From a virus, in IMG/VR virus record IMGVR_UViG_3300027797_000001, positions 32,001-96,000 of that record: DNA of 64,000 nucleotides; one strand, 5' to 3'. The position numbers and the translations under genes are program-made. Shown here piece by piece: positions 691 through 34,006 of this stretch. Under the pieces are notes generated by a model. It did no database searches and was not told where the DNA came from. It was given only the letters and a program-made list of their open reading frames with translations. Each line of letters starts with the position of its first letter. Positions within the stretch are counted from its first letter, which is position 1.

Positions 691-951
691 ATGGCACAGG
701 CAAAAGCAAAGAAAGTAAAAGTTACTGCCGGTGGAGAAAAACATGTAGTCTATAAAAAGACTACAAAAAAAGGTGAAGGAAAGGTTGGCAATATAATGGT
801 TAACCATCCCACAAAAGATAAAGGTCAGTGGGATACAATAGATCTTACTGCAAAAGGTAGAGCTAAGACAATTAAACAAGGAGTGGCAGCTACAAAGAAA
901 TGGCATAAGGACAACCCTTATCCTAAAAATAAAAAGAATGGCAAAAAGTAA
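691..951 (+). CDS. small basic hypothetical protein
   Basis: 86 aa, Lys-rich, tightly packed in the operon. Confidence 0.75.
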   Translation: MAQAKAKKVKVTAGGEKHVVYKKTTKKGEGKVGNIMVNHPTKDKGQWDTIDLTAKGRAKTIKQGVAATKKWHKDNPYPKNKKNGKK

Positions 952-1288
952 AGCACAACAAGCAGCAATTGCTATCTCTATGAAGAAAGCTGGTAAAACT
1001 CCTAAGATGAAATCTGGTGGTTCTACTCCTGCTTGGACACGTAAAGAAGGTAAGAATCCAGAAGGAGGTCTTAATGCTAAAGGAGTAGCTTCTTATAGAG
1101 CAGCTAATCCTGGAAGTAAACTTCAGACAGCTGTAACTACTAAGCCGTCAAAGCTTAAGCCTGGTAGCAAAGATGCAAAGAGACGTAAAAGTTTCTGTGC
1201 TAGAATGTCTGGAATGCCTGGACCAATGAAAGATGAAAAAGGAAGACCAACTAGAAAAGCTCTTTCTTTAAGAAAATGGAATTGTTAA
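938..1288 (+). CDS. small basic phage protein (DUF6321-like)
   Basis: 116 aa with AWTRKEGKNPEGGLNAKG...RRKSFCARM...SLRKWNC, a pattern recalled from aquatic phage proteins. Also has an MKSGG motif. Confidence 0.75.
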   Translation: MAKSKAQQAAIAISMKKAGKTPKMKSGGSTPAWTRKEGKNPEGGLNAKGVASYRAANPGSKLQTAVTTKPSKLKPGSKDAKRRKSFCARMSGMPGPMKDEKGRPTRKALSLRKWNC

Positions 1289-1304
1289 CTTATTATATAT
1301 AATT

Positions 1305-2159
1305 ATGAAAACTTGTAAAGTAGGTTGTGGTAAGATGAAATCTGGGGGCACAATCAAGAAAGTAAAAAAGATGGCTAAAGGTGGTGCCGCAGACTATAAT
1401 TATGGTATTCCATTAAATGGTTTACCAATGCGCCCTACTAATGGTAACACAGATATTTCTAAAAATCAAATGGGAACTAACCCTACCATGAAAAAAGGTG
1501 GCACCATGAAAAAAATGCAAAATGGTGGTCCTAATAACCTAAAAAAAAAAATAGGAAGATTAGAAAATAAAAAAGAAAGACTTGCAAATAAACGTTCAAG
1601 AGCCAGCTCTATAAGTAGGAACTTTCAAGGGGATCCTGATACTTTAAGTAAAGTTGTTGATAATGCTCTTCAGAAAAGAGCTATTAATGTAATGGAAAAA
1701 GTTTCAAATAAACGAGAAATGATTAATAAAAAAATTAAAGAACTAAAATCTTCAAATGCTTCATCAAGTATGAAAAAAATGGCAAAAGGTGGTGCTAAGA
1801 AAACTTTAATTAAAGCTCAAGCTGGACGTTCAATAGTCAATCCTAAAGAAATGTCTGATAAAATCAGAAGAGGACCAGGAATGCCACCTCCGACACCATT
1901 TGGTAAAGTTGATTCAGGTCCAATGGTAAATACAAGAGTTGATTCAGGTCCAACGATGAACCCATATTCTTCTACAAAAGAAGCTAAACTTCCTATTTCT
2001 GGACCTTCTTTTAAGAAGGGTGGTTCTACTTCCTTTGGTATGTTATCAGTTAAAGCTGGTGTAGATAAAAATCCTAAAGCAACTGCAGCAGATAGAATTG
2101 CTGGTGCAAAGATGAGTAAGAAACAAATGGGTGGTATGACAAAATCTAAAAAGAAGTAA
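1305..2159 (+). CDS. basic Lys/Met/Gly-rich protein with repeated [MF]xxGG motifs; putative internal virion protein
   Basis: 284 aa containing MKSGG, MAKGG (twice), MKKGG, MQNGG and FKKGG. Confidence 0.75.
   Translation: MKTCKVGCGKMKSGGTIKKVKKMAKGGAADYNYGIPLNGLPMRPTNGNTDISKNQMGTNPTMKKGGTMKKMQNGGPNNLKKKIGRLENKKERLANKRSRASSISRNFQGDPDTLSKVVDNALQKRAINVMEKVSNKREMINKKIKELKSSNASSSMKKMAKGGAKKTLIKAQAGRSIVNPKEMSDKIRRGPGMPPPTPFGKVDSGPMVNTRVDSGPTMNPYSSTKEAKLPISGPSFKKGGSTSFGMLSVKAGVDKNPKATAADRIAGAKMSKKQMGGMTKSKKK
1907..1953 (+). repeat. 17-bp direct repeat, 30-bp period (VDSGP x2)
   Basis: AGTTGATTCAGGTCCAA at 1907-1923 and 1937-1953. Confidence 0.85.
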
Positions 2160-2161
2160 TC

Positions 2162-2200
2162 ATGTGTAGCTGCAGAAATAAAGGTAAAGTTAAAAAGTAA
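2162..2200 (+). CDS. candidate 12-aa micropeptide MCSCRNKGKVKK
   Basis: The ORF fills the gap between 2159 and 2204. It has the same TAA-TC-ATG junction as 688/691 and the same Lys-rich style as its neighbours. Confidence 0.45.
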   Translation: MCSCRNKGKVKK

Positions 2201-2203
2201 GTC

Positions 2204-2488
2204 ATGGCAACTAAGAAGGCTACTGCAAAATTTGGTGCATCTGTAAAAGTGCAAAGAGGATATCCTGGAAAAATTAGATCTGCTAAAGATCAGGGATATA
2301 CTCCTGTGGGAGAAAGAGAACCTGACAGAACTAAGTTTAAAAAAGGTGGATCAACTGATAAAAAGTGGATTCAAAAAGCAATTAATCCTGCACATAAAGG
2401 ATATTGTACTCCTATGACTAAAGCTACTTGCACTCCTAAAAGAAAAGCTCTTGCTAAGACCTTAAAGAAAATTGCTAAAAATAAATAG
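2204..2488 (+). CDS. small basic protein with FKKGG motif
   Basis: 94 aa; FKKGG followed by KKWIQKAI...KALAKTLKK. Confidence 0.75.
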   Translation: MATKKATAKFGASVKVQRGYPGKIRSAKDQGYTPVGEREPDRTKFKKGGSTDKKWIQKAINPAHKGYCTPMTKATCTPKRKALAKTLKKIAKNK

Positions 2489-2490
2489 TA

Positions 2491-3192: not shown

Positions 3193-3194
3193 TA

Positions 3195-3713: not shown

Positions 3714-3714
3714 T

Positions 3715-3746: not shown

Positions 3747-3777
3747 CTATATATATGTTTAACTAAAATTTAAAAAA

Positions 3778-21600: not shown

Positions 21601-24463
21601 ACGATTTGTACCACAAGCTGGTAGAATGTTTGCTTTACCACCTATTACTAATACAATTGCAAATACTGCACCAGGTATTTTAAATTCTATAAAGACTATA
21701 TCGCAAAAACTTCCTACTAATTTATTAGATGAAGGTGCAAGAGATTTATTACATTATCCTAGTTTTGATGTTACACTTGGAGAATCAAATTTAACAGGAG
21801 TTGATGCTGCAAAGTATTTGGGAGACTTTGGCTTTAAACCATATTCAGAAGGTTGGACAGCTCTAAGTGACATGAAAAATGCATTTGAAGGAAAACAATG
21901 GAATCCTAGTAAAGAAGATTATTATACTCTTGATGAAATTTATAATTTAATAAATAAGCAAACAAATTATTTAAATGATCTTGCTAAGTTTAATGAAACA
22001 AATCCTGATGAATTAGGTGAGTATGGAAATTTATTAAGATGGATGCAAAATGATTTTAGTAGAGATGAATTATTTTCATTGTTATTTCCAAATTCTAGTA
22101 GACCAAATTTTAAAGAAAAATTTTATCGCCCAGAACATATAAATTTATTAAAACAAACTACACCCAATCCTGAAACTGGTATAAATTTATATGATAATTT
22201 AATTAAAAATACCAATTTTGGAGATAAAGGTTTAGTAGATAAGTATACATTAAGAAGATCAATAACAGAACCTAATACTGAAATATTACCGGGATCTGAA
22301 GATCTAATGTTATATAGACAAAGATATGAACCCTACAGAGGTTTAGATGCTGGTAATTTAAGTGAACGTAAAGATGTAATAGAGTTTCTTAAAGATCATG
22401 ATGGCATTTTAGGTTTTGAATTTAAAGATCTTAATAATGAATATTCCAATAATTTAAATTATTGGAAAGAACAAATATTTGAAAAGTTTGATAATCGACA
22501 ATATAAAAAATTTCAAAAGAAGTTTAAAGAACAATCTAAACCTGGAACTAGCTCTAAACTTAAAGGATTAGATGCTTATAATCAAATAATTAATAGAACT
22601 GGTTCTAGAAATAAATACGGAGGAGAACTACCTAAAGGTAAATACGGATACTCTGTTGGTAATCTTATAAGAAAACAATTTGGTGGTTTAGGTAGAGATC
22701 AAAGTTTATCAGTTTCACCATATGATCTTGATACTTACATTGGAGCTTCTGGAAATCAAATATATAATCCAGGATATAGTCTTACATATAATAAGCCAAA
22801 CCTTTTTAAAAAATTAGATGTAGTTGGAACTCCTTTTCAAGTATCAATAGGAAGACCTTATAATACTGATCCAAATAGTTTAACTAATCAATCTTTAAAT
22901 TTTGGAACATCATATGACTATGAATATATGGATCCAGGAGTACAACAAGGTCCACAACAAGAAGCTATAAATAATGCAGCTGCACAATATTTAGGAAAGG
23001 ATGTTCAAGATTTAAACCAATCTGATTTAAATAAATTTTCAGCATTTAAATCATTAGGGGAAATTAAAAATGCTTATGCTCCAGGAAAACCAATTAATTT
23101 ATCTACAAAACTTTCATTTTTAGGTAAAGCATTTAGTGACCAACCTGTTAGAGGTTTTGGATCAATATCTGGTGGTTATAATCCTGAAGCAGGTTTTTGG
23201 GCAGGAGCTGATCTTGGAGGTTTTGGAGTAATCTCAAATAAAAAACCAAAAACATATTTTGATAGAGGTTTATCTAGAAAAGGAGATTGGGCGGTTATTC
23301 CTAGTCTTTCTTTATTCTCTCCAGCAATTAGACAAAAAGGAATTGCAAATCTAGAACAATCTGCAGAGTATAAACGCTTATTAGAAAAAGATATACAAGA
23401 GGGTACTGATTCAGCACAAAATTATTATGATAATCAATTAGATGATCAGGGTAAGTCAACAATGACATTTAATGCAAGACCGGAAATTAAAGCGCAACTT
23501 AAACCATTTAAAAAGTTTCCCGGAATCTTAGAAGGGGTAGTTGGAGCTAATATAGATTTTATAAGTGGTGGTAAGGATTCTATGGATAAAATTACAACTA
23601 ATATAAACCCATACGGCAAAATATCATATGCTGTTTCTATTCAAGATGAGTTAGATAGAATGAAACGTAAGATGAAAAATGTAGAATTTCCTGATAAAAA
23701 ACACTATGAAGATTACGTAGAAGAATATGAAAATCAAACTACAGAAGAAACTCCTACAGAAACTGATAATCAAATTAATCCACCGGAGGTTGAATTAAAT
23801 TTTGATGGTCAAGGAGTAGGAAAAGCAGACTGCCCTAAAGGCTATGAAAGACCATGTGAAAAATGCAGATGTCAAAAAATAAAAATGCCTCAAATGTATA
23901 CAGACAAAAGAGGTAAACAGTTATTTGGCAATGAGCCTATTAGATTTCAAGATGGTGGAGAACAGGATGCAATGAATGCTATGATGAAAGCAAGACTTGC
24001 TTATGCTAATATGTTTGGTAATCCCTCAGCACAAAGAATGATTAATCTTCCAGATCAACCTTATGAATTTGATAATGGGAATACAGGCACACACTACATG
24101 GCAAGTATGGATAACTATGCTGTACCTCAAATTCAAGATGAGAATGGAGTATTACAGATTGGAAACTATGGTCCAGAATCTACTGAGGCAATGAGATTTG
24201 ACTCAGATGAAGATGCTAATTATTTTGCAGAAAACTATAAAGATGTTTCACCAGGATTTATGGATCTAGAACTTGATGATAATGAGATAGAAGAATACAG
24301 AAAAGGTGGTTATATAATAGAAGATATTTCTGTGCCTTCACTAACTAGAATGCAGCCTGTTGGTAAATATCAAGATGGTGGAGAATATCAATTGGGTGAT
24401 GAAGTAGATGAAGCTACTATGAAACAATTAAAAAAATTAGGTTTTACATTTGAACAAATTTAG
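18653..24463 (+). CDS. modular cargo/internal virion protein with zincin-like HExxH module
   Basis: 1936 aa, modules separated by xxGG linkers. HEVTH at 20960-20974 with a downstream TEVRARL; N-terminal ITMKGVNYPVLG...MMQPG module. Confidence 0.65.
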   Translation: MFNKKLLSSIDLGKYKKKNPYKKDMILDPMGQWKHPGKNTRIPSDRITMKGVNYPVLGVSNTGQKQMMQPGREYNFPGADYVDEYPQMKNGGLPKAQKGAATYQDSLDVYNNALKLKAFYDSKKQLYNISTRPWYGTSNLKKEEKETYDYDKNPANNPDVKTWTPQQKRNFQKTKDLIKANKDPNIAYITDLITGALDPDAPASRYDNRIKPQSEIAYSPYKAQYSKTEDSLYDKLQKNYDGMSSYGDPRFPTLTPSKKDLLDYAKKLGYSQKDAISLLYKLKRENLAMANTPGVNTILPYYDPLAVKPGKLLTDDEIRIRVKKYGTTGIPQNRLDKLGLNSSNPPKSSNPPKKSTSSTVTKSPCSNPTTTVINNVPDKIPFGKKLVGTDEETLPVTGKKCEYVKTINPIYEDVTIDPIKPPAIALRVDNGILPPLQQSTYVPQEPIEAPQYALGPYTADRLRLSVTPGKTKKVTKRGRLFDGKGQGYKHTEYKSTKDLEFGKKEVTRLIPRIVQKITGYDPEYFEGSYDEEGNYIPGELDFGNEVGGRMEFRGAASLQDLINQQKYAKDWEEYERKIDEREEQSKKKQEEGRAFKKGGTKKRIYNPNAKYYADGGENLQEECPPYHYWNGETCVPVSRELAPLDPQYLSENPDVATNMQIEPEVSVSPLGSDFSKAKSWIDKWHDSPMHDKMLMKSLQGNKKLFKEYKDKRKKNIQTIPALNISLDKSDPLYKEIKDYYGFAPWGASDSNTGAVSIYNSHPGNKQMLIHEVTHSSDRPDDKLGRLIPPNDQLTIQYRIPLNWKYSQYGKDMMKEYKEKGWRLDDEYMGEEEIPRDIYEQQQFNDWNKYLLSDQGTEVRARLSEIRQDAQEQNIYDPFNKKITRRQFKNLKNIKYPDSLDDLKKTFSDKDIKWMLNNISKNNNETEDAIQYGKKGGAKKKYTSDIINSTNYLFAEHPLFKKKKQSKKRIYNPNAKYYQLGGLTRFVPQAGRMFALPPITNTIANTAPGILNSIKTISQKLPTNLLDEGARDLLHYPSFDVTLGESNLTGVDAAKYLGDFGFKPYSEGWTALSDMKNAFEGKQWNPSKEDYYTLDEIYNLINKQTNYLNDLAKFNETNPDELGEYGNLLRWMQNDFSRDELFSLLFPNSSRPNFKEKFYRPEHINLLKQTTPNPETGINLYDNLIKNTNFGDKGLVDKYTLRRSITEPNTEILPGSEDLMLYRQRYEPYRGLDAGNLSERKDVIEFLKDHDGILGFEFKDLNNEYSNNLNYWKEQIFEKFDNRQYKKFQKKFKEQSKPGTSSKLKGLDAYNQIINRTGSRNKYGGELPKGKYGYSVGNLIRKQFGGLGRDQSLSVSPYDLDTYIGASGNQIYNPGYSLTYNKPNLFKKLDVVGTPFQVSIGRPYNTDPNSLTNQSLNFGTSYDYEYMDPGVQQGPQQEAINNAAAQYLGKDVQDLNQSDLNKFSAFKSLGEIKNAYAPGKPINLSTKLSFLGKAFSDQPVRGFGSISGGYNPEAGFWAGADLGGFGVISNKKPKTYFDRGLSRKGDWAVIPSLSLFSPAIRQKGIANLEQSAEYKRLLEKDIQEGTDSAQNYYDNQLDDQGKSTMTFNARPEIKAQLKPFKKFPGILEGVVGANIDFISGGKDSMDKITTNINPYGKISYAVSIQDELDRMKRKMKNVEFPDKKHYEDYVEEYENQTTEETPTETDNQINPPEVELNFDGQGVGKADCPKGYERPCEKCRCQKIKMPQMYTDKRGKQLFGNEPIRFQDGGEQDAMNAMMKARLAYANMFGNPSAQRMINLPDQPYEFDNGNTGTHYMASMDNYAVPQIQDENGVLQIGNYGPESTEAMRFDSDEDANYFAENYKDVSPGFMDLELDDNEIEEYRKGGYIIEDISVPSLTRMQPVGKYQDGGEYQLGDEVDEATMKQLKKLGFTFEQI
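19676..19711 (+). repeat. 18-bp tandem repeat (SSNPPK x2)
   Basis: AGTTCAAACCCACC at 19676 and 19694. Confidence 0.85.
20453..21583 (+). repeat. perfect 36-bp direct repeats flanking the zincin module
   Basis: AAGAAAAGAATATATAACCCTAATGCAAAGTATTAT at 20453-20488 and 21548-21583, each encoding KKRIYNPNAKYY. Confidence 0.9.
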
Positions 24464-24465
24464 TG

Positions 24466-27400
24466 ATGGCAAAGTATAGAATTACAAGTTTACCGCAGTC
24501 TTTACCTAAAGCACAAAAAGGATTATTTAATAAAAGAAATAAAATATCTGTTAGAAACGGTGAAGTTAAATTGTTTCCAAATTTATTTGGTGATAAAAAA
24601 AGAAACAATATAGATACTCAAGATCAATCAGATGATACACAATATAACTGGTCTGGCACAACTCCAGAATTAATGCAACCTGATCAAGAGTCTTTTGAAT
24701 TAAAACCTACATATGCACCAACACCAGAGTTTACTCAAGCAGATGTTAATTTAAGTTCTACTCTTAGTAAAATACAAGAGGAGAGAGACAGATTAGCTCA
24801 AGAAAAAGAAAACAAGGATTGGGAAGAGATGATGAAAAAAAGAGATGAGAAATTTAAAACTTCTAAAAAATATGATAAAATAGAACCTTTGCTTACAATT
24901 GATTCTGAAGGATATGCAGATGAGGATCTTGCTTATTTTCAAGAGGCTGGATATTTTCCAGTAAAAGATTCAAAAACAAATAAAATAAATTTATATCCAT
25001 CAAATGAAATAAATTCAAAAATTATTAATAATGGTTTAAGAACAGATGAGATTGTTAAAAAACTTGGAATAGGTGATGCTGAATCTGTGAAGTCTGCTTT
25101 TGGAGATTTAATGACTGCTGCAGATCAACAGTATTCGGCTACTGTTCAAAACAAATTATTACAAAAATCACTAGATGAAGGTATTAGTTTAGAAGACGCA
25201 GTTAAAAAATTATCTGGTAAACTTGGAACTGAAAAAGGTCTTCAAAAATATGTTGCGCCTACTACTGATTTAATAAATAATTATATTGATGAAATTAAAA
25301 AAAATGTAAACCAACCTGCGGAGAAAGAACTTCAGTCAATGTACTATGATAATAGAAATCCTAATCAAGGTTATTCTCCAAAGATTGATTATAATTCATA
25401 TGATCCAGGGTTAAAATATAACACGGATTATTATAATACTACAAATAATTGGGGACAATTTCTTAAAGACTATTCTGATTATAATAAAGAGTATGATAAA
25501 GAATATGCAGATTCATTTTATAATAAACAAAATCAAACTGCTGATAAATTAAATTTACCTGTGTCAGATAGAACAGGAAATTTAAAAAATCAACAAGATG
25601 TGATTAATCAAAATATATCATTAACTAAACAAGTTGGAGATGTTTCTACAGAAGCAGGAAATAAAACAATAAATAAGAAGTATATAGAACAACTACAGGC
25701 AGACATGGCAAGAGTTTCTGATCCTTTAGTTAAATATGAACTAAGTAAAAAACTTGATGCAGTAAAAAATAATCCAGAAGCTTTTTCTAAACTCTTAAAA
25801 GGTTTTGAATCTGGAGAAGTCTTTACAAAAGAAGATGAAGATAATATCAATGCTTTAACTTTTAGTATCCTTCAAAAAGAATCAAATCCAGATACTATAA
25901 AAGCTGGTGTAGATAGACCTAAACTTACAACATCAGATAAAGTATTTGATGTATTAACTAATCCATTTGACGCATTTAAATATTCAAACCAAGGAGGTTT
26001 AGATAATATGTGGACTAGCGGTATGGGTTATAATGAAAGAAAACTTTTAGAAAGAGCTAATCCAGAATTAAATCTTGGAACACAAGATAATCTAGTTGGT
26101 AATGCTTTGAATACATGGAATCCAATGAGATTTGCAAGAGATGTAGATTCTGATCTAGATAGAGAAGACTATGCTTCTGCTGGTTTAGAGGCACTTGAGT
26201 TTGCTACTCCTGCAATGTTTTCAAAAGCTGCAAGAGCTGGTAGATTAGCTAGAGACGCAAGTAAGTTTTTTCCAACTGGTTCAATCACACCAGGATTAAA
26301 AGGATTTACCGGATCTGCTTTTGAATCATTAAATCCCTATTTTGCATATGAGGCAATAAGACCAGGGGGAGAATTAAATAGATCATACGATTTACTTAAA
26401 GAAGGAAATATTAAAGAAGGACTTCAAGAAGGTGCTTTTGGTCTATTAAATCTTTTACCTGCAGCTGGTACTTTTAAAAGTTTAAAAAGTGCTGAAAACA
26501 TAGGTGGTGCTAAACCATTTGTATCACAACAATTAAGTTTTAAGAAAGGAGGAGAGTTACCTACTTATCAAGGGCCAATAAGATCAATTGTAAAAAGTAT
26601 TCCTTCTAAACTTGGTAATTTAGCAATGAAGACTGGAATAAAAACATTGCAACTTCCCGGAGTTAAACCTTTTTTTAGAAGTAACTATAATCCAATTAGT
26701 TATCCAATTAGTTATCCAATAAAACTTTTAGGTGAAAAAATAGCTAGACAATCTCTTAGTCCAAGTAGAAATAAAGAACAAGTTATTGCTGCACTTACTA
26801 AAAAAGCAGCCCCAGAAGAAAACCTTTATTTTGGTAATGTAACTGCTGTGGATCCAGAATATGGTTATGGTAAAAGAGATTTAATTGCTAATTATTTTAG
26901 AGGTATAGATACTGGTTTTAAACCAATTGACTATGATATTTATTCAGATCCTGGTTTAAAAAAATATATAGATAGATATGGACCTTTAAAAACATATGAA
27001 CTTAATTCATCTGTTAAACATGGTCAACCTTTAGACATTGCTGATTTTACTAGGCTGCTAAATATAGATGATACTAAATTAAGTAATTTTGATCAAGATC
27101 TTTATGAAGATGAAGTTTTTCAAAATATGCCTGGTTTAGAAGATTATTACTATAATGAGTATATGAATAATCTTCCTGGAACTAGTACTCCTAGTCCATA
27201 TAAAGCACAAAGACAATACTATAAAAAAATGTTACATCAATATTTTGATAAACGCGGTATAGAAGTTCTCCCTCTAGTTGTTGATCCAGATTTGAATACA
27301 TTAGGTAATGTTAAAAATTATTTAAGCCGTAATCCCGCTATATCATATGATGATCTTGCTGGTCATATGGGTTATTTAAAAAGATTGCCAAACAAAGAAG

Positions 27401-27654
27401 ATTTTGAATTTACTACAAGAGATATATGGAAATTTACACCTGATGACTATCATTCTAAATGGGCAGGATCTTCAAATAAAGATGAACTGTTTAAACAATT
27501 ACAAGTTGAGGCTATGGATGCATTTGGAAAACCATTTGTTTTAACCCAAACAAATCCAATGAAATTTAAAAACGGTGGTTCAATGGAATTAGAATTAACA
27601 CCAAAACAAATTAAAGAGTATATAAAAGCTGGATATATCATTGAAGATATCTAA
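24466..27654 (+). CDS. modular cargo/internal virion protein
   Basis: ~1062 aa (ATG 24466 preferred over GTG 24463). N-terminal KYRITSLP..LPKAQKG, FKKGG and FKNGG linkers, C-terminal MELELT...GYIIEDI. Confidence 0.65.
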   Translation: MAKYRITSLPQSLPKAQKGLFNKRNKISVRNGEVKLFPNLFGDKKRNNIDTQDQSDDTQYNWSGTTPELMQPDQESFELKPTYAPTPEFTQADVNLSSTLSKIQEERDRLAQEKENKDWEEMMKKRDEKFKTSKKYDKIEPLLTIDSEGYADEDLAYFQEAGYFPVKDSKTNKINLYPSNEINSKIINNGLRTDEIVKKLGIGDAESVKSAFGDLMTAADQQYSATVQNKLLQKSLDEGISLEDAVKKLSGKLGTEKGLQKYVAPTTDLINNYIDEIKKNVNQPAEKELQSMYYDNRNPNQGYSPKIDYNSYDPGLKYNTDYYNTTNNWGQFLKDYSDYNKEYDKEYADSFYNKQNQTADKLNLPVSDRTGNLKNQQDVINQNISLTKQVGDVSTEAGNKTINKKYIEQLQADMARVSDPLVKYELSKKLDAVKNNPEAFSKLLKGFESGEVFTKEDEDNINALTFSILQKESNPDTIKAGVDRPKLTTSDKVFDVLTNPFDAFKYSNQGGLDNMWTSGMGYNERKLLERANPELNLGTQDNLVGNALNTWNPMRFARDVDSDLDREDYASAGLEALEFATPAMFSKAARAGRLARDASKFFPTGSITPGLKGFTGSAFESLNPYFAYEAIRPGGELNRSYDLLKEGNIKEGLQEGAFGLLNLLPAAGTFKSLKSAENIGGAKPFVSQQLSFKKGGELPTYQGPIRSIVKSIPSKLGNLAMKTGIKTLQLPGVKPFFRSNYNPISYPISYPIKLLGEKIARQSLSPSRNKEQVIAALTKKAAPEENLYFGNVTAVDPEYGYGKRDLIANYFRGIDTGFKPIDYDIYSDPGLKKYIDRYGPLKTYELNSSVKHGQPLDIADFTRLLNIDDTKLSNFDQDLYEDEVFQNMPGLEDYYYNEYMNNLPGTSTPSPYKAQRQYYKKMLHQYFDKRGIEVLPLVVDPDLNTLGNVKNYLSRNPAISYDDLAGHMGYLKRLPNKEDFEFTTRDIWKFTPDDYHSKWAGSSNKDELFKQLQVEAMDAFGKPFVLTQTNPMKFKNGGSMELELTPKQIKEYIKAGYIIEDI
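26690..26720 (+). repeat. 12-bp tandem repeat (PISY x2.5)
   Basis: ATCCAATTAGTT ATCCAATTAGTT ATCCAAT. Confidence 0.85.
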
Positions 27655-27712: not shown

Positions 27713-30700
27713 ATGACAAAAAAGAAAGTAAGAATATACAAGGCTCCAGATGGTAAAGGTCAGTATATAAATAAAACTGCAAAGTTCTTAAAGAAAGCTG
27801 CATTTGGTGGTCAATCAGATACTCCGCAAGAGGATATGTATTCTCAATTGGCACAAGCTTCATATATGTCTATTAAAAAGGGACAAAGTCCAAAGGCAGT
27901 ATATGACTTTTTAATTAATAATAAAATTAGTAAAGATGTTGCTGAGAAAATTGTGACAAGTGTTATACAGTTCATGATGTCAAAAGGTGAATTAGAACAA
28001 GAAGACCTTGACGAAGATCAGCAAAAAGAGCAACAGATGCAAGCTCAAATGCAACAACAGCAACAAGAAAAAGAACAAATGGCTTCTGAACAAGATGCTG
28101 CTAATGAAGCACAGATGGACATGTACAACAAACAAAGTATGGATGTTGCTAATGACATGTCTCAGTATGATCAAGAAGCAGAAGCTAACTTAGATACAGA
28201 AGATATATTAGGTTTTCAGGCTGGTGGTCAAATGACTACAGATGATTTATTGTCAGAACTTAATAAGCATGATAATGATATTAATTTCCAAGATTTAGAA
28301 TCATTAATTCAGTCTACTCCTGGAACACAAAGTGCATCATTCCCAGGGATTGAAGAATACTACTTACCTTATATTCCACTTTATAGTGAAAGCAATGAGA
28401 TTCCAATTTATAATCCAATACAAAGTGATAATCAATATAAGTTTGGGGGAAAAACAAAAAAGAAATTTATAGGATCAGTACTAGAACTTTTAAAGAAAGA
28501 AGAGGGTGGCGAGGATGAAGTAATTAATAATACTACAGCTACTCCTAAAGATGATCTTACAAATACTGTTAAGAGAAAACAAGATTCATTTGTATCAGCA
28601 TTAAGTGACGAAGCTAAAAAAATAAAAATAGAAGAGTATTATAATCAAATTAAAAATACAAATGATCCAGATACTCAAGAAATTTTAGGTGGAGGCCCTG
28701 ATCAAATGAAAAGGGGTGGCAGAACTAAAAGAAAAGATAATAGACTGCTTAGAAAATTAAATAGAATACTAGGACAAAATGATATGTATGGTATGCAAGG
28801 GTATATGCCATATAATTATTTTAATAAGCGTAGTGGAGATTTTGCAAATCAAAGATTTGATACTTTAGACTATCCATCAATTGCAGAATACTATAAAGCA
28901 TTGTTAGAGAAAATGCCAGTGTTAAATCAAATGTCAAGAGTATTGCCTCAAGTAGATGTTTATGACACAGGTTTATTTGGTAGACCAAAGAAGTATAAGA
29001 TTTCATATAACATTCAACCAGTAGATAAATCTGCAGAAAGACAAGCTATGGAAGCTGTTATTAAGAACAATACTGGATCATCTTTCCCAATGTTATATCC
29101 AAATCCTGGTTATGATGGTTCTCCTGCTCCAGCTGGTACAATGTTAGATGTAGTTAATGACCGCTCTATAGCTCCTATACAATATGATGCATCTGTAAAA
29201 CCTATGGTTCCTACAGGTCCAATGGCTTTTCAGTTTGGAGGTTCAGCTATTTTTGATCCTTCTGCAAGTACATTAGCAAAATATATCTATGGTGGCAATG
29301 ATTTTCCAGAAGATTCTAAGAATGTAAATGATCCATACTTTTCAGATACTACACCATATCCACAAATGCAAAATGGCGGAGATCCCACTGAATATACACA
29401 TTATACTCATGGAGCTAATGATGTATTTCATGATAACATGAATATGATAAATCAAGCTAAGGATGGTTTAGAAACTGGTGGTGATGAATATGCTCTTGAT
29501 TATATAAGACAACTTGCTGGTCAAATGAAGCAGTATAATAAAGCTTCTAGAAAATTAGGAAGGCAGGCAAGAAGAATGACTGGAAATACCATGTTAGATT
29601 ATTTAATTCCTATCAATAGACCTTTTGAGTATGCAGGAAGTTATGGTCAACAAAGGGGAATGCCATTTGATTATGAGACCGGTGAAGAATACACCGGTGA
29701 AATAGACCCATCTAATTTTGTAGCAAGGGATAATTATAAAATAGGAATGTTTGGTAAACCTAAAAAATTTATAGATTATTATTCAGTAGGTAATGAAGGA
29801 CTTAATGTTCCAGATGATTTTTCAGAAATTGAACCATATACAAAGTCAAAACAAAAAGCTCCTGCTCAACAAGATGTTTATAATGAACAAGAAGAGGAAG
29901 ACATTTCTTTTCGTCAAGCAAGAAGGAATGATGGCGTAAGTAATATTAGAGGTGCTTTTGCAAGAATGTTTCCTGAAAGTTCAGGTAGAGAAGATAGAGA
30001 AAGAATGTTTCCTATGCTCAGAGCTCAAGACTCAGATAGAAGTGAAGACAGAAGATTGTTTCCAATGATGAGGGCGGATAAAAAACAAGAAGGTGGAGAA
30101 CCAAACCAGGATGATTATTATAATGATTTATTTTCTAAATTAAACTATAGTAATACCTATAGCAATTATTACAATGAATTAGAATTTAGAAAAGGTGGAA
30201 GAGTATTAAGAAAAGCATTTGCGGGTTTAGAAAATACACCTGTTTCATATAATGACAATCCAGTTACTTCACAAAATATTATTAGTCAAAATACTCCAGA
30301 TCCTATGGAGCAAATGACAGCATTTCAAGGACCTATTATAGAAGATAGTGACTTTAATTTTCCAACTGATCTTCCTGGACCAGTTTCTACAACTAAACCT
30401 TATGTTGAACCTGCAGAAGATGATTGGTCAGGTCCTCAAATGAGTAATCCAGACATAGATTATCCTGCTGGTCCTGAGAAACTTAAAAATAAATTAGTAG
30501 GTGTTAAGAGAAAAAGAAAAGATATGTTTAATATAGATCCAGAAGCAGGTGTTAATGCATTTAATGCTGGAGCTAGAGGAGTTCTTGGTGGTATTGATAG
30601 AATGAGGAATAAGAAACAAGAAGCAAACATGTATGCTAAAAACTTTGACCCTACTAAAATTTATGGACAAAAATCAAGAATAGATAAAGGTGACTATGAT

Positions 30701-31069
30701 GTAAATAAAGGATTGTATAGAGTAAATCAAATGGGTGCTGATAGATTAGGCCGCTCTAAAAAGTATGGAGGTTATATGCAACCAGGAGGATCAGTAGATC
30801 AACAAATGTATTACCCTGAAGACAATATGGTTTATCCTCCAGGAGATAGTCAGTATCCAATGATTCCTTTGAATCAAGATATTATGGATATGATGTATAA
30901 CCAATACTATTCTGATCCTAACTTTGCACCTTATATGGAAGACCCATATATGGAAGAAACTCCAGAGCAAATGGACTACAGAATGGTAAAAGAAGGTGGA
31001 GAAACCTATATGTCAGATGAACAAATAAATGCCTTCTTAGCTGAAGGAGGAGAAATTGAATATTTATAA
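27713..31069 (+). CDS. low-complexity cargo/internal virion protein with many xxGG motifs
   Basis: 1118 aa, acidic and Gln/Met-rich, ~15 xxGG motifs, N-terminal KVRIYKAP, C-terminal GGEIEYL. Confidence 0.65.
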   Translation: MTKKKVRIYKAPDGKGQYINKTAKFLKKAAFGGQSDTPQEDMYSQLAQASYMSIKKGQSPKAVYDFLINNKISKDVAEKIVTSVIQFMMSKGELEQEDLDEDQQKEQQMQAQMQQQQQEKEQMASEQDAANEAQMDMYNKQSMDVANDMSQYDQEAEANLDTEDILGFQAGGQMTTDDLLSELNKHDNDINFQDLESLIQSTPGTQSASFPGIEEYYLPYIPLYSESNEIPIYNPIQSDNQYKFGGKTKKKFIGSVLELLKKEEGGEDEVINNTTATPKDDLTNTVKRKQDSFVSALSDEAKKIKIEEYYNQIKNTNDPDTQEILGGGPDQMKRGGRTKRKDNRLLRKLNRILGQNDMYGMQGYMPYNYFNKRSGDFANQRFDTLDYPSIAEYYKALLEKMPVLNQMSRVLPQVDVYDTGLFGRPKKYKISYNIQPVDKSAERQAMEAVIKNNTGSSFPMLYPNPGYDGSPAPAGTMLDVVNDRSIAPIQYDASVKPMVPTGPMAFQFGGSAIFDPSASTLAKYIYGGNDFPEDSKNVNDPYFSDTTPYPQMQNGGDPTEYTHYTHGANDVFHDNMNMINQAKDGLETGGDEYALDYIRQLAGQMKQYNKASRKLGRQARRMTGNTMLDYLIPINRPFEYAGSYGQQRGMPFDYETGEEYTGEIDPSNFVARDNYKIGMFGKPKKFIDYYSVGNEGLNVPDDFSEIEPYTKSKQKAPAQQDVYNEQEEEDISFRQARRNDGVSNIRGAFARMFPESSGREDRERMFPMLRAQDSDRSEDRRLFPMMRADKKQEGGEPNQDDYYNDLFSKLNYSNTYSNYYNELEFRKGGRVLRKAFAGLENTPVSYNDNPVTSQNIISQNTPDPMEQMTAFQGPIIEDSDFNFPTDLPGPVSTTKPYVEPAEDDWSGPQMSNPDIDYPAGPEKLKNKLVGVKRKRKDMFNIDPEAGVNAFNAGARGVLGGIDRMRNKKQEANMYAKNFDPTKIYGQKSRIDKGDYDVNKGLYRVNQMGADRLGRSKKYGGYMQPGGSVDQQMYYPEDNMVYPPGDSQYPMIPLNQDIMDMMYNQYYSDPNFAPYMEDPYMEETPEQMDYRMVKEGGETYMSDEQINAFLAEGGEIEYL

Positions 31070-31078
31070 TTTTGTATT

Positions 31079-34006
31079 ATGTATCATAGAGTAAGAATTA
31101 AAAAATTGCCACAGGCAAGAACAGGTTACCAAGTACAAGGTTCACTAGCTAATGATGTACCAGCTTTTGGTGGAGCAGATTATAATGCATATATAGGAAA
31201 ACCAAATCTTAGACAAAGTAAATATATTACAGCTGTACCAAGAGATGAAGCTAACTTAGAAGCAGAAGGTGGAGAAACTGTATATGGTGACATCAATGGA
31301 GATGGTTTTCCAGAACACAAAGTTATAAAAGGACCAAGACACTCAGCAGGTGGTGTACCATTATCATTACCAGATGATACATTTATTTTTAGTGATACTA
31401 AATCAATGAAGATAAATGATCCTAATGTTTTACAAATGTTTGGTAAAGCACCTAAGAAAGGAAAAGGTCAACATGGCTTTACTCCAGCAGATCTTGCTAA
31501 GCAATATGATATAGATAAGTATAGAAAAATATTACAAGATCCTGACTCAGATCATATTGCTAGAAAAACTGCTGAACTAATGATCCGTAACTATAATATG
31601 AAGTTAGGAGCTTTAGCATTAGCACAAGAAGCTAAAAAAGGATTTCCTCAAGGTATACCAGTAGTAGCTAAACCTTACATGGAAGCTATGGGTCTTACAG
31701 AAGATAAACTTCTACCAGCTGAATATAGAACATTGTCAGCTCCACAAGAAGAAGAAGAAATGCCAGAAGATCAAATGCAAGATCCTTCACAACAATATGC
31801 TTCTGATGATTATGATGTAGAGAATACACCATATGATACAGAAGAAGAAATGGGAATGCAACCTGGTATGGGATTAGATCAAGCAGCCATGGAAGGGCAA
31901 ATGCAAATGCCACCTATGGCTATGTATGGTATGGAGATGGGAGGTTATGATATGCCTTTTGCTGCATATGGTATGCCTATGGGAGCTAATTCTAGTAACT
32001 ATATGGGAAGAACTAAAAGAATCCAAGGTAGTGGTCCATTTCCAAACCGTCAAATGGCTAGAGAAGGAATTATTGCGGGTGGTGTATTAGGTATGCCATT
32101 GGTAATGCAAGATGGTGGATATTTACCTAAAGCTCAAACAGGACCAACAACACCTAAATATAAAACATATAATGAGGCTGATCTTCCTGCAGGAACTGCA
32201 GTTAAAGATCCTAAAGATATGAGTCTTAAGGTTGGTGATTATGTAAGACAAGCAGATGGTACAGTAACTAAAGTTACTAGTGCGGCTTTAAAAACAAAAG
32301 TTGATACACAAACTCGACCTGGTACAAGAGCAGACTTTATGAATGCATCTGCTGATAACAAAGCTATACTAGAAGCAGGAGATAAAATTATTGATAAAGC
32401 AATAGCCAGTGGACAAGCTGTAAGAGGTTATAAAAAACCAGATGGTACTTGGGTAAATGACAAAACAAAATCTGGTGTAAGATTATTAGGAGATTTAAAT
32501 TTACCATTTGAAGATAGAATTATACTAAGTAGAGCACTTAATTCTTCTCAAGAATTTGGTACTAATAAATATAAGGTTGAATCTCAAGCAATGACCAAAG
32601 GTTATTCTAGAAAAGTTGATGGTAAATTTAAAGGTTCAGGATCTTTTGTTTCTGGATTTACACCTGAAGATTATGAGAAGAGATATCTTTTTGAAAAAGC
32701 TAGAGGATTTGGTTTAAATGATCAAGAAGCATTTGATCAAATAAATAAAATATATGCGGATCCAGCAAAAACTTCTGAGATTAGAAAAGAATATTTAAAT
32801 TATTTAGGAAAAGGAAATTTAGCTACTGGTAAATCAGATGCTGATTTATTAAATCCTAATTTTTATAAAGCTAATTATGCTGAAGTAACTTCTGGAATTG
32901 AATCAGTATTAGGTGCAGCAGCAAATAGACCTACAATAGGTGATGAGCAATTATCTGGTTTTGAGCACTTTGATGCTGCTGGTTTAAGTCCAGAGTTTAA
33001 TTATGAACCACCTGAGAATCCATGTCCATGTAAAGATGATAGTGGTCAAACAGTAGTTAGAGATGCTGATGGAAATTGCCCATGTCCAGATAAACCAAAA
33101 GATTGTCCTTGTGGTAAAGATCCTATAACTGGACAATGTAAACCATGTGACGAAATACCACCGGGAAAAAAACCTCCTGTTACTCCACCAGCTAAATGGT
33201 GGTTGCAAGATACAATTAAAACTACTGGTGCATTTGGGGATTTAATGGGTATTAAAAAATATATGCCATGGTCACCTAAAGTAGATCTTGAAGAACCAAG
33301 ACCTACATTCTTAGATCCTACAAGAGAACTTGCTCAACAGTCTGAACAAGCAAATCTTGCCATCATGAATTTAGCTGCATTTGCTGGACCACAAGCTTTA
33401 TCTAGTAGAGCATCAAGCATACAAGGAACTGGGGCTAAATCAGCCGCAGATACTTTATCTAGAATAAATAATGCTAATGTTGGTATAGCAGATAATTTTG
33501 AGATGAAACAAGTAGATATTAGAAATCAAGAAGCACTTGCTAATCAAGCTGGACAGCAAAAACTTTATGATGCAAATACTATAGCTAATCAACAGTTTGA
33601 TAATTCAAGAATGGCATTAAGAAATCAAATGAGAAATCATTATACAAATGCTATTACTAATAAAGCTAAAACAGCTACATTAAATCAGTTGTATCCACAG
33701 TACGCAGTCTTGCCAGAGACTGGTGGTATGCCAGGATTTAAAGGCGGTAAGCCAATTAAACCTGAAGTTACAAAAACTGCTCAAGAATACTTTGATGAGA
33801 TAAAACTACAGTATCCTGATATGGATGACAAAACCGCATATCAAATGGCTAAAGATAGAGCAGGTACTCAAACAACCGATGATAATGCTATGGATGTTGT
33901 TAATGCACAATACAATGTTCCATCTGGAACAGATATGAGATATGGAGGATTTGCTAATGGAGGCTTTGTTTATGGAGACTCAATCTATCCTTTCTTTTTT
34001 ACTTAA
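31079..34006 (+). CDS. crAss-like cargo protein (E-x-E-GGE...G..H..GG...IFSD family)
   Basis: 975 aa. ANLEAEGGETV...KGPRHSAGGVP...TFIFSD resembles the conserved protein found after the muzzle gene in crAss-like phages. Has a Gln/Asn-rich helical C-terminal region and a CPC cluster. Confidence 0.65.
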   Translation: MYHRVRIKKLPQARTGYQVQGSLANDVPAFGGADYNAYIGKPNLRQSKYITAVPRDEANLEAEGGETVYGDINGDGFPEHKVIKGPRHSAGGVPLSLPDDTFIFSDTKSMKINDPNVLQMFGKAPKKGKGQHGFTPADLAKQYDIDKYRKILQDPDSDHIARKTAELMIRNYNMKLGALALAQEAKKGFPQGIPVVAKPYMEAMGLTEDKLLPAEYRTLSAPQEEEEMPEDQMQDPSQQYASDDYDVENTPYDTEEEMGMQPGMGLDQAAMEGQMQMPPMAMYGMEMGGYDMPFAAYGMPMGANSSNYMGRTKRIQGSGPFPNRQMAREGIIAGGVLGMPLVMQDGGYLPKAQTGPTTPKYKTYNEADLPAGTAVKDPKDMSLKVGDYVRQADGTVTKVTSAALKTKVDTQTRPGTRADFMNASADNKAILEAGDKIIDKAIASGQAVRGYKKPDGTWVNDKTKSGVRLLGDLNLPFEDRIILSRALNSSQEFGTNKYKVESQAMTKGYSRKVDGKFKGSGSFVSGFTPEDYEKRYLFEKARGFGLNDQEAFDQINKIYADPAKTSEIRKEYLNYLGKGNLATGKSDADLLNPNFYKANYAEVTSGIESVLGAAANRPTIGDEQLSGFEHFDAAGLSPEFNYEPPENPCPCKDDSGQTVVRDADGNCPCPDKPKDCPCGKDPITGQCKPCDEIPPGKKPPVTPPAKWWLQDTIKTTGAFGDLMGIKKYMPWSPKVDLEEPRPTFLDPTRELAQQSEQANLAIMNLAAFAGPQALSSRASSIQGTGAKSAADTLSRINNANVGIADNFEMKQVDIRNQEALANQAGQQKLYDANTIANQQFDNSRMALRNQMRNHYTNAITNKAKTATLNQLYPQYAVLPETGGMPGFKGGKPIKPEVTKTAQEYFDEIKLQYPDMDDKTAYQMAKDRAGTQTTDDNAMDVVNAQYNVPSGTDMRYGGFANGGFVYGDSIYPFFFT

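What the first reader, a model, noticed from the sequence alone, without database searches (positions are those of the whole stretch)
938..34006. [MFY]xxGG linker repeated ~29 times, shared by tiny basic proteins and four large cargo proteins
Seen (manual count of strict [MFY]xxGG): 1 in 938..1288, 6 in 1305..2159, 1 in 2204..2488, 7 in 18653..24463, 2 in 24466..27654, 8 in 27713..31069 and 4 in 31079..34006. There are also looser K-x-x-GG variants. I found none in the ~9,500 aa of the last four proteins and one in the muzzle. The motif often continues as LPKAQxG (TTTACCTAAAGC at ~18928, 24501, 32122) and sits at apparent module boundaries. Established analogies: di-Gly cleavage sites of adenovirus protease, ASFV polyprotein processing, and C39 double-glycine leaders; the register here differs from adenain's (M/I/L)xGG. 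Inference: a maturation-protease site that cuts polyproteins into effectors, or a multivalent capsid-interior packaging tag.
Basis: partly seen in the sequence, partly recalled or inferred. Interest (0 to 1): 0.82.

Follow-up and report, generated by a model that had tools for sequence, protein, structure and literature searches.

The report
Gly-Gly junction tag on crassvirus cargo
A crAss-like phage marks the joints and ends of the proteins it most likely packs and injects, and of a cluster of tiny basic proteins, with one short peptide (Met/Phe/Tyr, two residues, Gly-Gly); the tag is real, conserved and apparently undescribed, but whether it is a docking joint or a cutting site remains open.

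Summary
Observation confirmed. The window is the late region of a complete 114.9-kb environmental crassvirus. Strict [MFY]-x-x-G-G occurs 30 times in the seven named ORFs, against 4.4 ± 2.1 in shuffles, and never in the 9,550 aa of the four giants. Two complete relatives and 13 further loci show the same distribution, although the cargo sequences barely align.

The motifs are conserved islands in predicted disordered linkers. They sit at homology-block edges and at protein termini. Small basic modules that follow a leader plus GG here are encoded bare in sister phages, starting exactly after the GG.

The genome has no C39, adenain, Ulp1 or HK97-type protease. The first cargo protein does carry a gluzincin-like HExxH domain. 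In 140 diverged proteins that domain is bracketed by motifs (509 observed, 111 expected; 4 inside the domain, 505 outside).

Cutting directly after GG is disfavoured: Pro is not depleted at the next position, the downstream side is conserved, the motif is about 2.7-fold enriched at C-termini, and other virion proteins do not avoid it.

Best reading (0.42): an uncut junction or docking tag with an unidentified reader. Main rival (0.35): a processing site for the co-packaged zincin peptidase.

This scan found the same motif in at least ten other crass-like genomes. I found no published description.

The parts
105..443 (+). Small basic Cys-containing protein (DUF5872), first member of the basic cluster lying inside the window; it has one GG, which is not of the strict type.
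   Evidence: Pfam PF19197, E 2.5e-14; sequence; near-identical in relatives.
446..951 (+). Two small basic proteins (80 and 86 aa). Each is a Lys-rich N-terminal stretch, then a single conserved GG, then a conserved body.
   Evidence: exactly one GG per protein in every relative examined.
938..1288 (+). DUF6321 protein with a 28-aa basic leader ending in the motif (1007-1021). The conserved module starts at the residue after GG.
   Evidence: Pfam PF19846, E 1.1e-24. Orthologs in L001, L003, L006, L011 and L014 lack the leader and start at the module. The pelagiphage homolog HTVC115P gp68 likewise starts at the module, and Jormungand gp21 has no tagged leader.
1305..2159 (+). 284-aa Lys-rich protein with six strict motifs (1335, 1371, 1488, 1515, 1779, 2010).
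   Evidence: The first three motif positions are conserved in all relatives.
2204..2488 (+). 94-aa basic protein: a 49-aa extension ending in the motif (2336-2350), then a conserved two-Cys module.
   Evidence: In L001 the module is encoded with only a 5-residue N-terminus. In L008, L011 and L014 it follows a longer extension whose junction with the module keeps the K-K-G-G element but has Ala at -3, so that junction copy is not strict; the one strict motif lies further upstream.
13143..18653 (+). Muzzle protein (context). It marks the start of the cargo block and has one chance-level motif.
   Evidence: Pfam PF25731 crAss_MUZ, E 4.5e-18.
18653..24463 (+). First post-muzzle cargo-position protein (1936 aa) with eight motifs. 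It is modular, and the conserved E-E-Y-R-K-G-G-Y-I-I-E-D-I element lies about 40 residues from its C-terminus.
20666..21475 (+). Gluzincin-like peptidase domain (HEVTH at residue 770 of the protein) inside the first cargo protein.
   Evidence: 287 homologs. AF2 pLDDT 87, pTM 0.85. Best structural matches are neprilysin, Zmp1, lethal factor and PepO, Z 7.4-6.0, and nearly all of the top 50 are zinc peptidases. HExxH is intact in 93 of 95 homologs covering the site.
20453..20488 (+). Left copy of a perfect 36-bp direct repeat, running into motif 20486-20500. With its partner it flanks the peptidase cassette.
   Evidence: family D5.
21548..21583 (+). Right copy of the 36-bp repeat, running into motif 21581-21595. 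The spacing is 1095 bp, so it is in frame.
   Evidence: family D5.
24463..27654 (+). Extra cargo-position protein (1063 aa, no Cys) with two motifs, an N-terminal L-P-K-A-Q-K-G and the shared C-terminal element. It has no counterpart in G001 or G004.
27713..31069 (+). Cargo-position protein (1118 aa, no Cys) with eight strict motifs and 18 GG. It evolves very fast: only about 60 N-terminal residues align to a phage sharing 80% identity in the conserved 816-aa structural protein (6278-8728).
31079..34006 (+). Best-conserved cargo-position protein (975 aa, more than 1,500 homologs) with four strict motifs, all in predicted disordered segments. The composite element motif + L-P-K-A-Q-x-G (32105-32143) is a conserved island.
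34066..62692 (+). Four motif-free giants (1080, 2571, 3508, 2391 aa). The 3508-aa protein has a conserved HEAWH zincin-like site and the DFDID RNAP site. The 2391-aa protein has HEFSH and a LysM domain.

Best explanation
The motif is a short linear junction and terminus tag. Its extended form is [LI]-P-[QK]-[MFY]-[QKA]-[DK]-G-G-x-[IVT]. It is specific to the set of proteins this crassvirus carries inside the particle: the modular proteins encoded right after the muzzle gene, and a cluster of small Lys-rich, two-Cys modules encoded right after the capsid genes.

Shown here: it lies in disordered linkers between folded modules and at protein ends. It is conserved while the flanks are not. Modules are gained, lost, fused or encoded separately exactly at it.

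Inferred: the chain stays intact in the virion. The GG pair acts as a flexible joint that lets a beads-on-a-string protein be stored and threaded through the portal and tail module by module. The conserved Met/Phe/Tyr and its neighbours are a handle read by one common partner. That partner could be the capsid, portal or tail-barrel interior, the packaged DNA, or other cargo chains. The partner has not been identified.
For: Enrichment is class-specific and conserved.
- Basic proteins: 32 observed, 3.1 expected. Cargo: 51 observed, 11.0 expected, over three complete genomes.
- In 13 further loci: 135 vs 33.6 upstream of the 975-aa homolog and 44 vs 10.3 within it.

The motif has the signature of a short linear motif.
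- In 121 homologs the composite element at residues 343-355 of the 975-aa protein is a conserved island between gap-rich stretches.
- All four strict motifs of that protein lie in AF2 segments with pLDDT below 50. A confident domain starts 2 residues after the element ends.
- Homology-block edges lie within 10 aa of a motif in 20% of cases, against 8.3 +/- 2.0% for random positions.
- The same small modules occur with or without a tagged leader, or fused behind another module. In each case the boundary falls right after GG.

Several results point to a specific reader.
- Position -3 is Met 6.1x, Phe 3.5x and Tyr 2.1x, but Leu 0.44x.
- Codon use at GG is ordinary, so selection is on the protein.

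Several results point to an uncut state.
- Pro directly after GG is at expectation: 5 vs 5.1, and 30 vs 32.7.
- The downstream side is conserved, with I/V/T at +2 at 3-4x.
- Motifs are 2.7x enriched in the last 30 residues and about 2x in the first 30.
- A 25-residue element conserved on both sides of GG ends many of these proteins.
- Other virion proteins show no avoidance: 12 observed, 11.8 expected. The capsid protein keeps a conserved M-I-K-G-G.
- No GG-directed protease is encoded.

In PhicrAss001 the two gp45 pieces resolved by cryo-EM (214-245 and 425-552) start just after GG elements and the second ends just before one. The modelled 425-552 piece runs through the GG at 427-428.
Against: No partner was identified.

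Sister phages encode the DUF6321 and other small modules without the tagged leader, so the tag is not needed for those modules to function. The giants lack it entirely, although their homologs are virion proteins in cultured crassviruses.

A conserved, apparently active zincin peptidase travels in the same polypeptides and is bracketed by motifs. A leader that ends exactly where the leaderless ortholog begins is also what a cleaved propeptide looks like.

No peptide-level proteomics exists for this lineage. 'Uncut' therefore rests on indirect sequence statistics and on one distant phage.
Confidence: 0.42

Rival explanations
1. Processing site. The motif is the recognition code of the gluzincin-like peptidase domain(s) carried in the cargo proteins and giants. 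Cutting happens in the filled capsid or, more plausibly, after ejection into the host. It would release effector modules from a threaded string and small basic peptides from their precursors. The scissile bond may lie in front of the Met/Phe/Tyr (a P1' residue in a zincin S1' pocket) rather than after GG.
For: A confident zincin-like fold with invariant H-E-x-x-H plus a downstream Glu sits inside the first cargo protein. HExxH is intact in 93 of 95 homologs.

In 140 proteins under 50% identical to each other, motifs number 509 against 110.8 expected. They pile up just before and just after the domain, with 4 inside and 505 outside.

A second zincin-like site (HEAWH) is conserved in the RNAP giant of all three genomes. 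The giants, which must stay whole, are about 2-fold depleted in the motif: 4 vs 9.2 and 8 vs 15.7.

Leaders of 15-49 aa end in GG exactly where leaderless orthologs begin.

Published proposals exist: zincin peptidases process polyvalent phage proteins (PMC5512222), and phi14:2 gp65 carries such a domain.
Against: Pro is not depleted directly after GG, and the downstream side is conserved. Motifs are enriched within 30 residues of C-termini, where cutting would release only a few residues.

Other virion proteins show no avoidance. Leu, usually a good zincin P1' residue, is depleted at -3.

Bracketing is not specific to the peptidase domain, because every module is bracketed.

PhicrAss001 virions show bands at 270 and above 300 kDa and at 85-100 kDa, which is compatible with full-length giants and gp45.
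Confidence: 0.35
2. Passive structural element with no dedicated reader. The motif would be a helix stop or turn (a hydrophobic residue three positions before a Gly-Gly cap) that simply ends each small module and gives a flexible hinge.
For: Pro at -5 with hydrophobic residues at -6, -3 and +2 around GG fits a one-turn helix plus cap, or a turn between strands. The motif lies between modules. GG is a classic hinge.
Against: A generic cap should accept Leu, Ile and Val and should occur in all protein classes. Instead Leu is depleted and Met is 6x enriched, and the motif is at chance level in 64,000 aa of other proteins from the same three genomes. AF2 gives it no local structure. It is conserved as an island when both flanks change.
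Confidence: 0.13
3. DNA-level recombination box. The conserved coding sequence at joints would serve as a homology patch for swapping cargo modules between phages, like the demarcation motifs of polymorphic toxins.
For: A perfect 36-bp direct repeat flanks the peptidase cassette, in frame. There are three copies of a 12-nt identical stretch at the L-P-K-A-Q element. Modules are visibly exchanged at motifs.
Against: Gly-Gly codon pairs in motifs follow ordinary usage (GGT-GGA 0.26 against 0.27 in non-motif GG) and nine different pairs are used. A 15-nt core is too short for homologous recombination. Selection is clearly on residues such as Met/Phe/Tyr.
Confidence: 0.04

Closest known systems
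Cargo proteins C1/C2 (gp45, gp46) of Bacteroides phage PhicrAss001 (Bayfield et al. 2023, PMC10172136)
   Same: The genes occupy the same position, directly after the muzzle gene and before the RNAP-associated giants. gp45 is also GG-rich (21 GG in 842 aa, 3 of them strict motifs). Its two structurally resolved pieces are bracketed by GG elements, and it has a basic N-terminus ending in the motif and a Lys-rich C-terminus after GG.
   Different: No detectable homology: BLASTP, hhalign, a PDB profile search, Pfam PF25725 and Foldseek were all negative. This lineage has three or four such proteins, a far higher motif density, and an added cluster of tagged small basic proteins. The paper does not mention the motif or any processing.
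Polyvalent proteins with zincin-like metallopeptidase domains (Iyer, Burroughs, Anand, de Souza, Aravind 2017, PMC5512222)
   Same: Both are large multi-module proteins delivered with phage DNA, with mobile domains at variable positions and an embedded HExxH peptidase proposed to process the chain.
   Different: No junction or cleavage motif was defined there (0 hits for 'linker' or 'glycine'). The peptidase family found here matches no Pfam model. The atlas link to the LPD domains is only a weak lead at 0.82-0.85.
Adenovirus protease sites, (M/I/L)-X-G-G|X, in core-protein precursors pVII, pX and others (my own knowledge)
   Same: Both have a hydrophobic residue upstream of GG. Both are shared by small basic DNA-associated proteins and larger internal proteins of the same particle.
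   Different: The hydrophobic residue is one position further from GG, and it is Met/Phe/Tyr with Leu depleted. No adenain-like gene is present. Pro is tolerated after GG.
T4 capsid targeting sequence plus gp21 cleavage (internal proteins IPI-III, Alt), and the PhiKZ/SPN3US prohead-protease processing of ejection proteins (PMC9026906, PMC5694885, PMC7411985, listed; details from my own knowledge)
   Same: One short signal is shared by tiny basic internal proteins and large injected enzymes of one phage.
   Different: Those signals are N-terminal only and end in Glu, not GG, and a dedicated prohead protease is encoded. Here the motif is internal and at both termini, and no HK97-type prohead protease was found.
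Demarcation motifs of polymorphic toxins (VENN in CdiA, DPxGL in Rhs) and encapsulin C-terminal cargo-loading peptides (my own knowledge)
   Same: Both are short conserved peptides at the border between conserved and swappable modules, or at a cargo's end, that dock it to an HK97-fold shell.
   Different: Different sequences and different systems. No binding to the capsid protein was tested here.

Membership tests
Crassvirales virion module | Crassvirus major capsid, tail ring 1 and 2, and muzzle proteins in conserved order | tested here: met
   Pfam Crass_capsid 2.6e-29, CrAss_Ring_2 2.4e-20, CrAss_Ring_1 2.1e-9 and crAss_MUZ 4.5e-18.
PhicrAss001 cargo protein C1 family (Pfam PF25725 crAss_CARG1) | Match to the portal-bound domain model | tested here: not met
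   No match in six frames of the whole genome at E <= 1. hhalign probability 0.1. No PDB profile hit.
PhicrAss001 cargo protein C1 family (Pfam PF25725 crAss_CARG1) | Gene position directly downstream of the muzzle gene and upstream of the RNAP-associated giants | tested here: met
Adenain-type (peptidase C5) maturation sites | A clan CE cysteine protease encoded by the virus | tested here: not met
   PF00770 and PF02902: no match at E <= 1. Three of the cargo-region proteins (1063, 1118 and 1080 aa) have no Cys at all.
Adenain-type (peptidase C5) maturation sites | Consensus (M/I/L)-X-G-G|X or (M/I/L)-X-G-X|G | tested here: not met
   The hydrophobic residue sits one position further upstream. 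Leu is 0.44x and Ile 0.84x at that position.
Double-glycine leader peptides (peptidase C39) | C39 peptidase domain | tested here: not met
   PF03412: no match at E <= 1. A host-encoded enzyme could not be tested.
Double-glycine leader peptides (peptidase C39) | N-terminal leader of about 15-30 aa ending in GG, with the mature part starting after it | tested here: inconclusive
   Leaders of 15-49 aa ending in GG precede conserved modules that are leaderless in sister phages. Most motifs are internal or C-terminal, however, and the leader consensus differs.
T4/HK97-type prohead-protease processing | Prohead protease gene in the head module | tested here: not met
   PF04586 (S78): no match. No peptidase family appeared among the 25 of 42 families listed in the all-ORF Pfam scan, other than DUF2201_N/PhageMetallopep in the replication module. 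S77, S49 and ClpP were not searched individually.
Polyvalent proteins with zincin metallopeptidase (Iyer et al. 2017) | Zincin-like HExxH peptidase domain within a large multi-module phage protein | tested here: met
   The Z scores of 6.0-7.4 are moderate, but nearly all top matches are zinc peptidases, and H, E, H and a later E are near-invariant.
Polyvalent proteins with zincin metallopeptidase (Iyer et al. 2017) | Delivery into the host with the DNA | not testable with these tools
   Inferred from synteny with PhicrAss001 cargo genes only.
Encapsulin-type cargo-loading peptide | Short terminal peptide that binds the inner face of an HK97-fold shell | not tested
   Terminal enrichment (2.7x at the C-terminus) is compatible. 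No binding test to the capsid protein was run.

The most novel reading that the evidence does not exclude
The motif is the cleavage code of a virion-borne gluzincin peptidase. The phage would inject its effectors as intact beads-on-a-string chains, which the co-injected peptidase then cuts at the joints inside the host. The same enzyme would trim precursors of small basic DNA-associated peptides. That would be an adenovirus-like maturation and uncoating logic in a tailed phage, and the first defined site for the long-postulated processing of polyvalent phage proteins.
Probability: 0.3. Interest if true: 0.85.

Novelty: new variant of a known kind. Interest (0 to 1): 0.62.

Why it matters
Crassviruses are among the most abundant phages known. 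Their particles carry megadaltons of cargo protein, and how that cargo is loaded, stored and ejected is unknown.

A short, order-wide peptide tag that marks exactly this protein set gives a concrete handle for experiments. It can be mutated, fused to reporters, used as bait, or searched for as a neo-terminus in cultured systems such as PhicrAss001 and the Cellulophaga phages.

It also delimits the exchangeable modules of very fast-evolving injected proteins. That helps in annotating candidate anti-host effectors. It further links those proteins to a family of small basic modules (DUF5872, DUF6321) that are widespread in marine cyanophages and pelagiphages.

If the tag proves to be a peptidase site, it would define the first processing code for polyvalent phage proteins.

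Tried and rejected
1. Stop-codon recoding in relatives. The apparent lack of a long muzzle ORF in six loci arose only because the ORF ran off the locus end. Alternative codes add nothing.

2. Homology of the 975-aa protein to PhicrAss001 gp45. A resemblance seen by eye was not supported by BLASTP, hhalign, a PDB profile search, PF25725 or Foldseek.

3. A composition-based disorder proxy showed no difference between motif flanks and background. The AF2 model was needed.

4. The protease-avoidance test found no depletion in other virion or non-virion proteins.

5. The DNA-level box hypothesis: codon usage at GG is ordinary.

6. Sequence searches gave nothing useful for the cassette or the 975-aa N-terminus against PDB, or for the peptidase family against Pfam. 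The 'phages' collection had no match to the 816-aa or 1936-aa proteins. The single-protein pattern scan with the 1118-aa protein found nothing.

7. One complex prediction, of the peptidase domain with its own upstream 41-residue motif-bearing linker, returned 'no answer'. It counts neither for nor against.

A graded series of very close relatives for the fastest-evolving cargo proteins therefore could not be fetched, and IMG/VR loci were used instead.

9. Literature searches found no description of the motif or of GG-directed processing in phages.


Full report
WHAT THE WINDOW IS. The window is bases 32001-96000 of a complete 114,922-bp IMG/VR virus record with direct terminal repeats. Pfam identifies a crassvirus: Crass_capsid, CrAss_Ring_1, CrAss_Ring_2 and crAss_MUZ.

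The late-gene order is as follows.
- The major capsid gene and a 341-aa gene, both just upstream of the window.
- A cluster of small Lys-rich proteins (genome 31605-34488, which is window -395 to 2488).
- A 233-aa virion protein, an HU/IHF-like protein and tail genes.
- Ring 2 (11418-12083), ring 1 (12083-13141) and the muzzle (13143-18653).
- Four proteins of 1936, 1063, 1118 and 975 aa.
- Four giants of 1080, 2571, 3508 and 2391 aa. The 3508-aa protein carries the DFDID RNAP site.

This mirrors PhicrAss001, where the muzzle gp44 is followed by cargo proteins gp45 and gp46 and the RNAP-associated gp47, gp49 and gp50. 'Cargo' status here rests on that synteny alone.

A regex on the translations gives 30 strict [MFY]-x-x-G-G in the seven named ORFs. 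There is one in the muzzle and none in the 9,550 aa of the giants (coordinates). Composition-preserving shuffles give 4.4 +/- 2.1. Of the 57 GG dipeptides in these ORFs, 30 have M, F or Y at -3, against 1 of 45 elsewhere in the window. Two more tagged basic ORFs lie outside the window.

IT IS CONSERVED AS A DISTRIBUTION, NOT JUST AS SEQUENCE. I pooled three complete genomes: this one, G001 (80% identity in the conserved 816-aa structural protein, 6278-8728) and G004 (about 58%). Observed against expected counts were as follows.
- Basic cluster: 32 vs 3.1.
- Post-muzzle proteins: 51 vs 11.0.
- Giants: 4 vs 9.2.
- Other virion proteins: 12 vs 11.8.
- Non-virion proteins: 16 vs 16.6.

Yet the 1118-aa protein aligns to its G001 counterpart over only about 60 residues. 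Thirteen further loci give 135 vs 33.6 (upstream cargo genes), 44 vs 10.3 (975-aa homologs) and 8 vs 15.7 (giants).

Weaker versions occur in one post-muzzle protein of Cellulophaga phage phi4:1 (4 of 14 GG), in Leptolyngbya phage Lbo-JY46 (2 of 5), and in PhicrAss001 gp45 (3 strict among 21 GG).

ANATOMY. The 975-aa protein has more than 1,500 homologs. In a 121-sequence alignment, the element [YMF]-x-x-G-G-[YE]-L-P-K-A-Q-x-G is a conserved island (G 95/121, K 96/121, final G 104/121). The stretches on either side are 80-90% gaps.

An AF2 model built on 43 sequences has mean pLDDT 63.9. It puts all four strict motifs and the L-P-K-A-Q element in segments below pLDDT 50 (residues 220-357 and 929-975). 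A confident domain starts two residues after the element ends.

Across 33 cargo proteins, homology-block starts lie within 10 aa of a motif in 20.1% of cases, against 8.3 +/- 2.0% for random positions. Block ends do so in 19.0% of cases against 8.6 +/- 1.9%. None of 500 random sets reached either value. Blocks typically begin or end exactly on the motif. These pairs are related sequences, so the numbers are descriptive.

The clearest evidence comes from the small proteins.
- The DUF6321 module follows a 28-aa leader plus motif here. In five sister phages the gene starts at the module itself. Pelagiphage HTVC115P gp68 does the same, and Jormungand gp21 likewise has no tagged leader.
- A second two-Cys module follows a 49-aa tagged extension here, but only five residues in L001.
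- A third module sits either behind the same leader plus motif, or fused behind another protein through K-K-K-M-G-G.
- Cyanophage S-CAM8 fuses DUF5872-like and DUF6321 modules in one 455-aa protein.

Motifs are also 2.7-fold enriched in the last 30 residues and about 2-fold in the first 30. Many of these proteins end in a conserved element of about 25 residues, of the form ...L-T-P-E-E-I-E-E-Y-R-K-G-G-Y-I-I-E-D-I....

THE MOTIF IS SPECIFIC. At -3, Met is 6.1x, Phe 3.5x and Tyr 2.1x, while Leu is 0.44x, Ile 0.84x, Val 0.73x and Trp absent. The extended consensus over 552 instances in mutually diverged proteins is [LI]-P-[QK]-[MFY]-[QAK]-[DK]-G-G-x-[IVT]. Gly-Gly codon pairs follow normal usage, so selection acts on the peptide.

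PROTEASE SEARCH. Six-frame searches of the whole genome found no Peptidase_C39, C5 (adenain), C48 or S78, even at E <= 1. The only Pfam peptidase-like gene is a DUF2201_N/PhageMetallopep + VWA protein in the minus-strand replication module.

The first cargo protein, however, holds an HEVTH site at residue 770. It lies in a 365-aa cassette flanked by a perfect, in-frame 36-bp direct repeat (20453-20488 and 21548-21583). An earlier first-reader note had pointed this out, and I confirmed it.

The core domain has 287 homologs, at widely varying positions in large proteins and also as stand-alone proteins. It matches no Pfam or PDB sequence. It folds confidently (pLDDT 87, pTM 0.85).

Its best structural matches are neprilysin, Zmp1, lethal factor, PepO and ECE-1, at Z 7.4-6.0. 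Nearly the whole top-50 list is zinc peptidases. These Z values are moderate. H, E, H and a later Glu are near-invariant, and HExxH is intact in 93 of the 95 homologs that cover the site.

In 140 such proteins, each under 50% identical to the others, the motif occurs 509 times against 110.8 expected. Four lie inside the domain and 505 outside, with pile-ups just before and just after it. G001 and G004 carry a different HExxH module in their first cargo protein, and the RNAP giant has a conserved HEAWH site. Published work already proposes that such zincin domains process polyvalent phage proteins and notes one next to the phi14:2 RNAP.

CUT OR UNCUT? For cutting: the peptidase co-occurrence, the leader architecture, and the roughly 2-fold depletion in the giants.

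Against cutting directly after GG:
- Pro at the next position is at expectation (5 vs 5.1, and 30 vs 32.7), although Pro is strongly depleted at -4, -2 and -1.
- The downstream side is conserved.
- Motifs concentrate near C-termini.
- Other virion proteins show no avoidance, and the capsid protein has a conserved M-I-K-G-G.
- Bracketing is a property of every module, not of the peptidase alone.

In PhicrAss001 the gel shows bands at 270 and above 300 kDa and at 85-100 kDa. The cryo-EM pieces of gp45 (214-245 and 425-552) are bracketed by GG elements, and the chain is modelled through the GG at 427-428.

I therefore rank an uncut junction or docking tag first (0.42). Processing by the zincin, in another register or after ejection, comes second (0.35). 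A passive cap or hinge is third (0.13), and a DNA recombination box fourth (0.04).

COMPARISON AND NOVELTY. The closest biological counterpart is the PhicrAss001 cargo set. The closest concepts are polyvalent proteins with zincin peptidases, T4 capsid-targeting sequences, adenovirus protease sites, and polymorphic-toxin demarcation motifs. None of their defining molecular features that I could test is met, apart from the polyvalent-protein architecture.

I found no paper describing the motif. This scan has met the same motif in at least ten other crass-like genomes. Those follow-ups are unchecked by me and were used only as leads. The PF25725 lead was tested here and gave no match.

LIMITS. 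There are no experimental data for this lineage. The one complex prediction gave no verdict.

Noticed in passing
window 20453-20488 and 21548-21583: A perfect 36-bp direct repeat, 1095 bp apart and in frame, flanks the zincin-like cassette of the first cargo protein. Identity at every synonymous site suggests a recent insertion, duplication or gene conversion. Recombination between the copies would excise the cassette cleanly. The cassette is absent from G001 and G004 but present in L039 (31% identity).
   Followed up: partly
window 24463-62692: Extreme cysteine depletion: no Cys in the 1063-, 1118- and 1080-aa proteins, and only 1, 2 and 1 in the 2571-, 3508- and 2391-aa giants. I confirmed the counts only.
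   Followed up: partly
window 105-2488; L032 (S-CAM8), L033 (HTVC115P), L034 (Jormungand): The small basic two-Cys modules (DUF5872, DUF6321 and others) are shared with T4-like cyanophages and pelagiphages (546 phage records for DUF6321). There they lie next to capsid or scaffold genes, or are fused into one multi-module protein. They look like a widespread class of internal, probably DNA-associated, head proteins of aquatic phages.
   Followed up: partly
window 24290-24330 and 27565-27651; many proteins: A conserved element of about 25 residues (...L-T-P-E-E-I-E-E-Y-R-K-G-G-Y-I-I-E-D-I-S-V-P...) lies at or near the end of several cargo proteins and follows the zincin domain in many unrelated large proteins. 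It is conserved on both sides of GG and may be a small docking domain in its own right.
   Followed up: partly
window 45028-55554 and 55517-62692: The 3508-aa giant combines a conserved HEAWH zincin-like site (residue 966) with the DFDID RNAP site (residue 2470). That makes it a fusion of what are separate gp65-like and gp66-like proteins in phi14:2. The 2391-aa giant has HEFSH (residue 628) and a LysM domain (residues 2061-2103).
   Followed up: partly
window 24463-27654: The 1063-aa cargo-position gene has no counterpart in the two complete relatives (G001, G004). It appears to be an extra cargo gene built from the same N-terminal and C-terminal elements.
   Followed up: no
window 6278-8728: The 816-aa structural protein has an N-terminal segment of about 195 residues that is missing from most relatives (621-727 aa there). 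It matches no Pfam or PHROG family. I first took it for the portal, but the 914-aa gene upstream of the capsid gene is the likelier portal.
   Followed up: no
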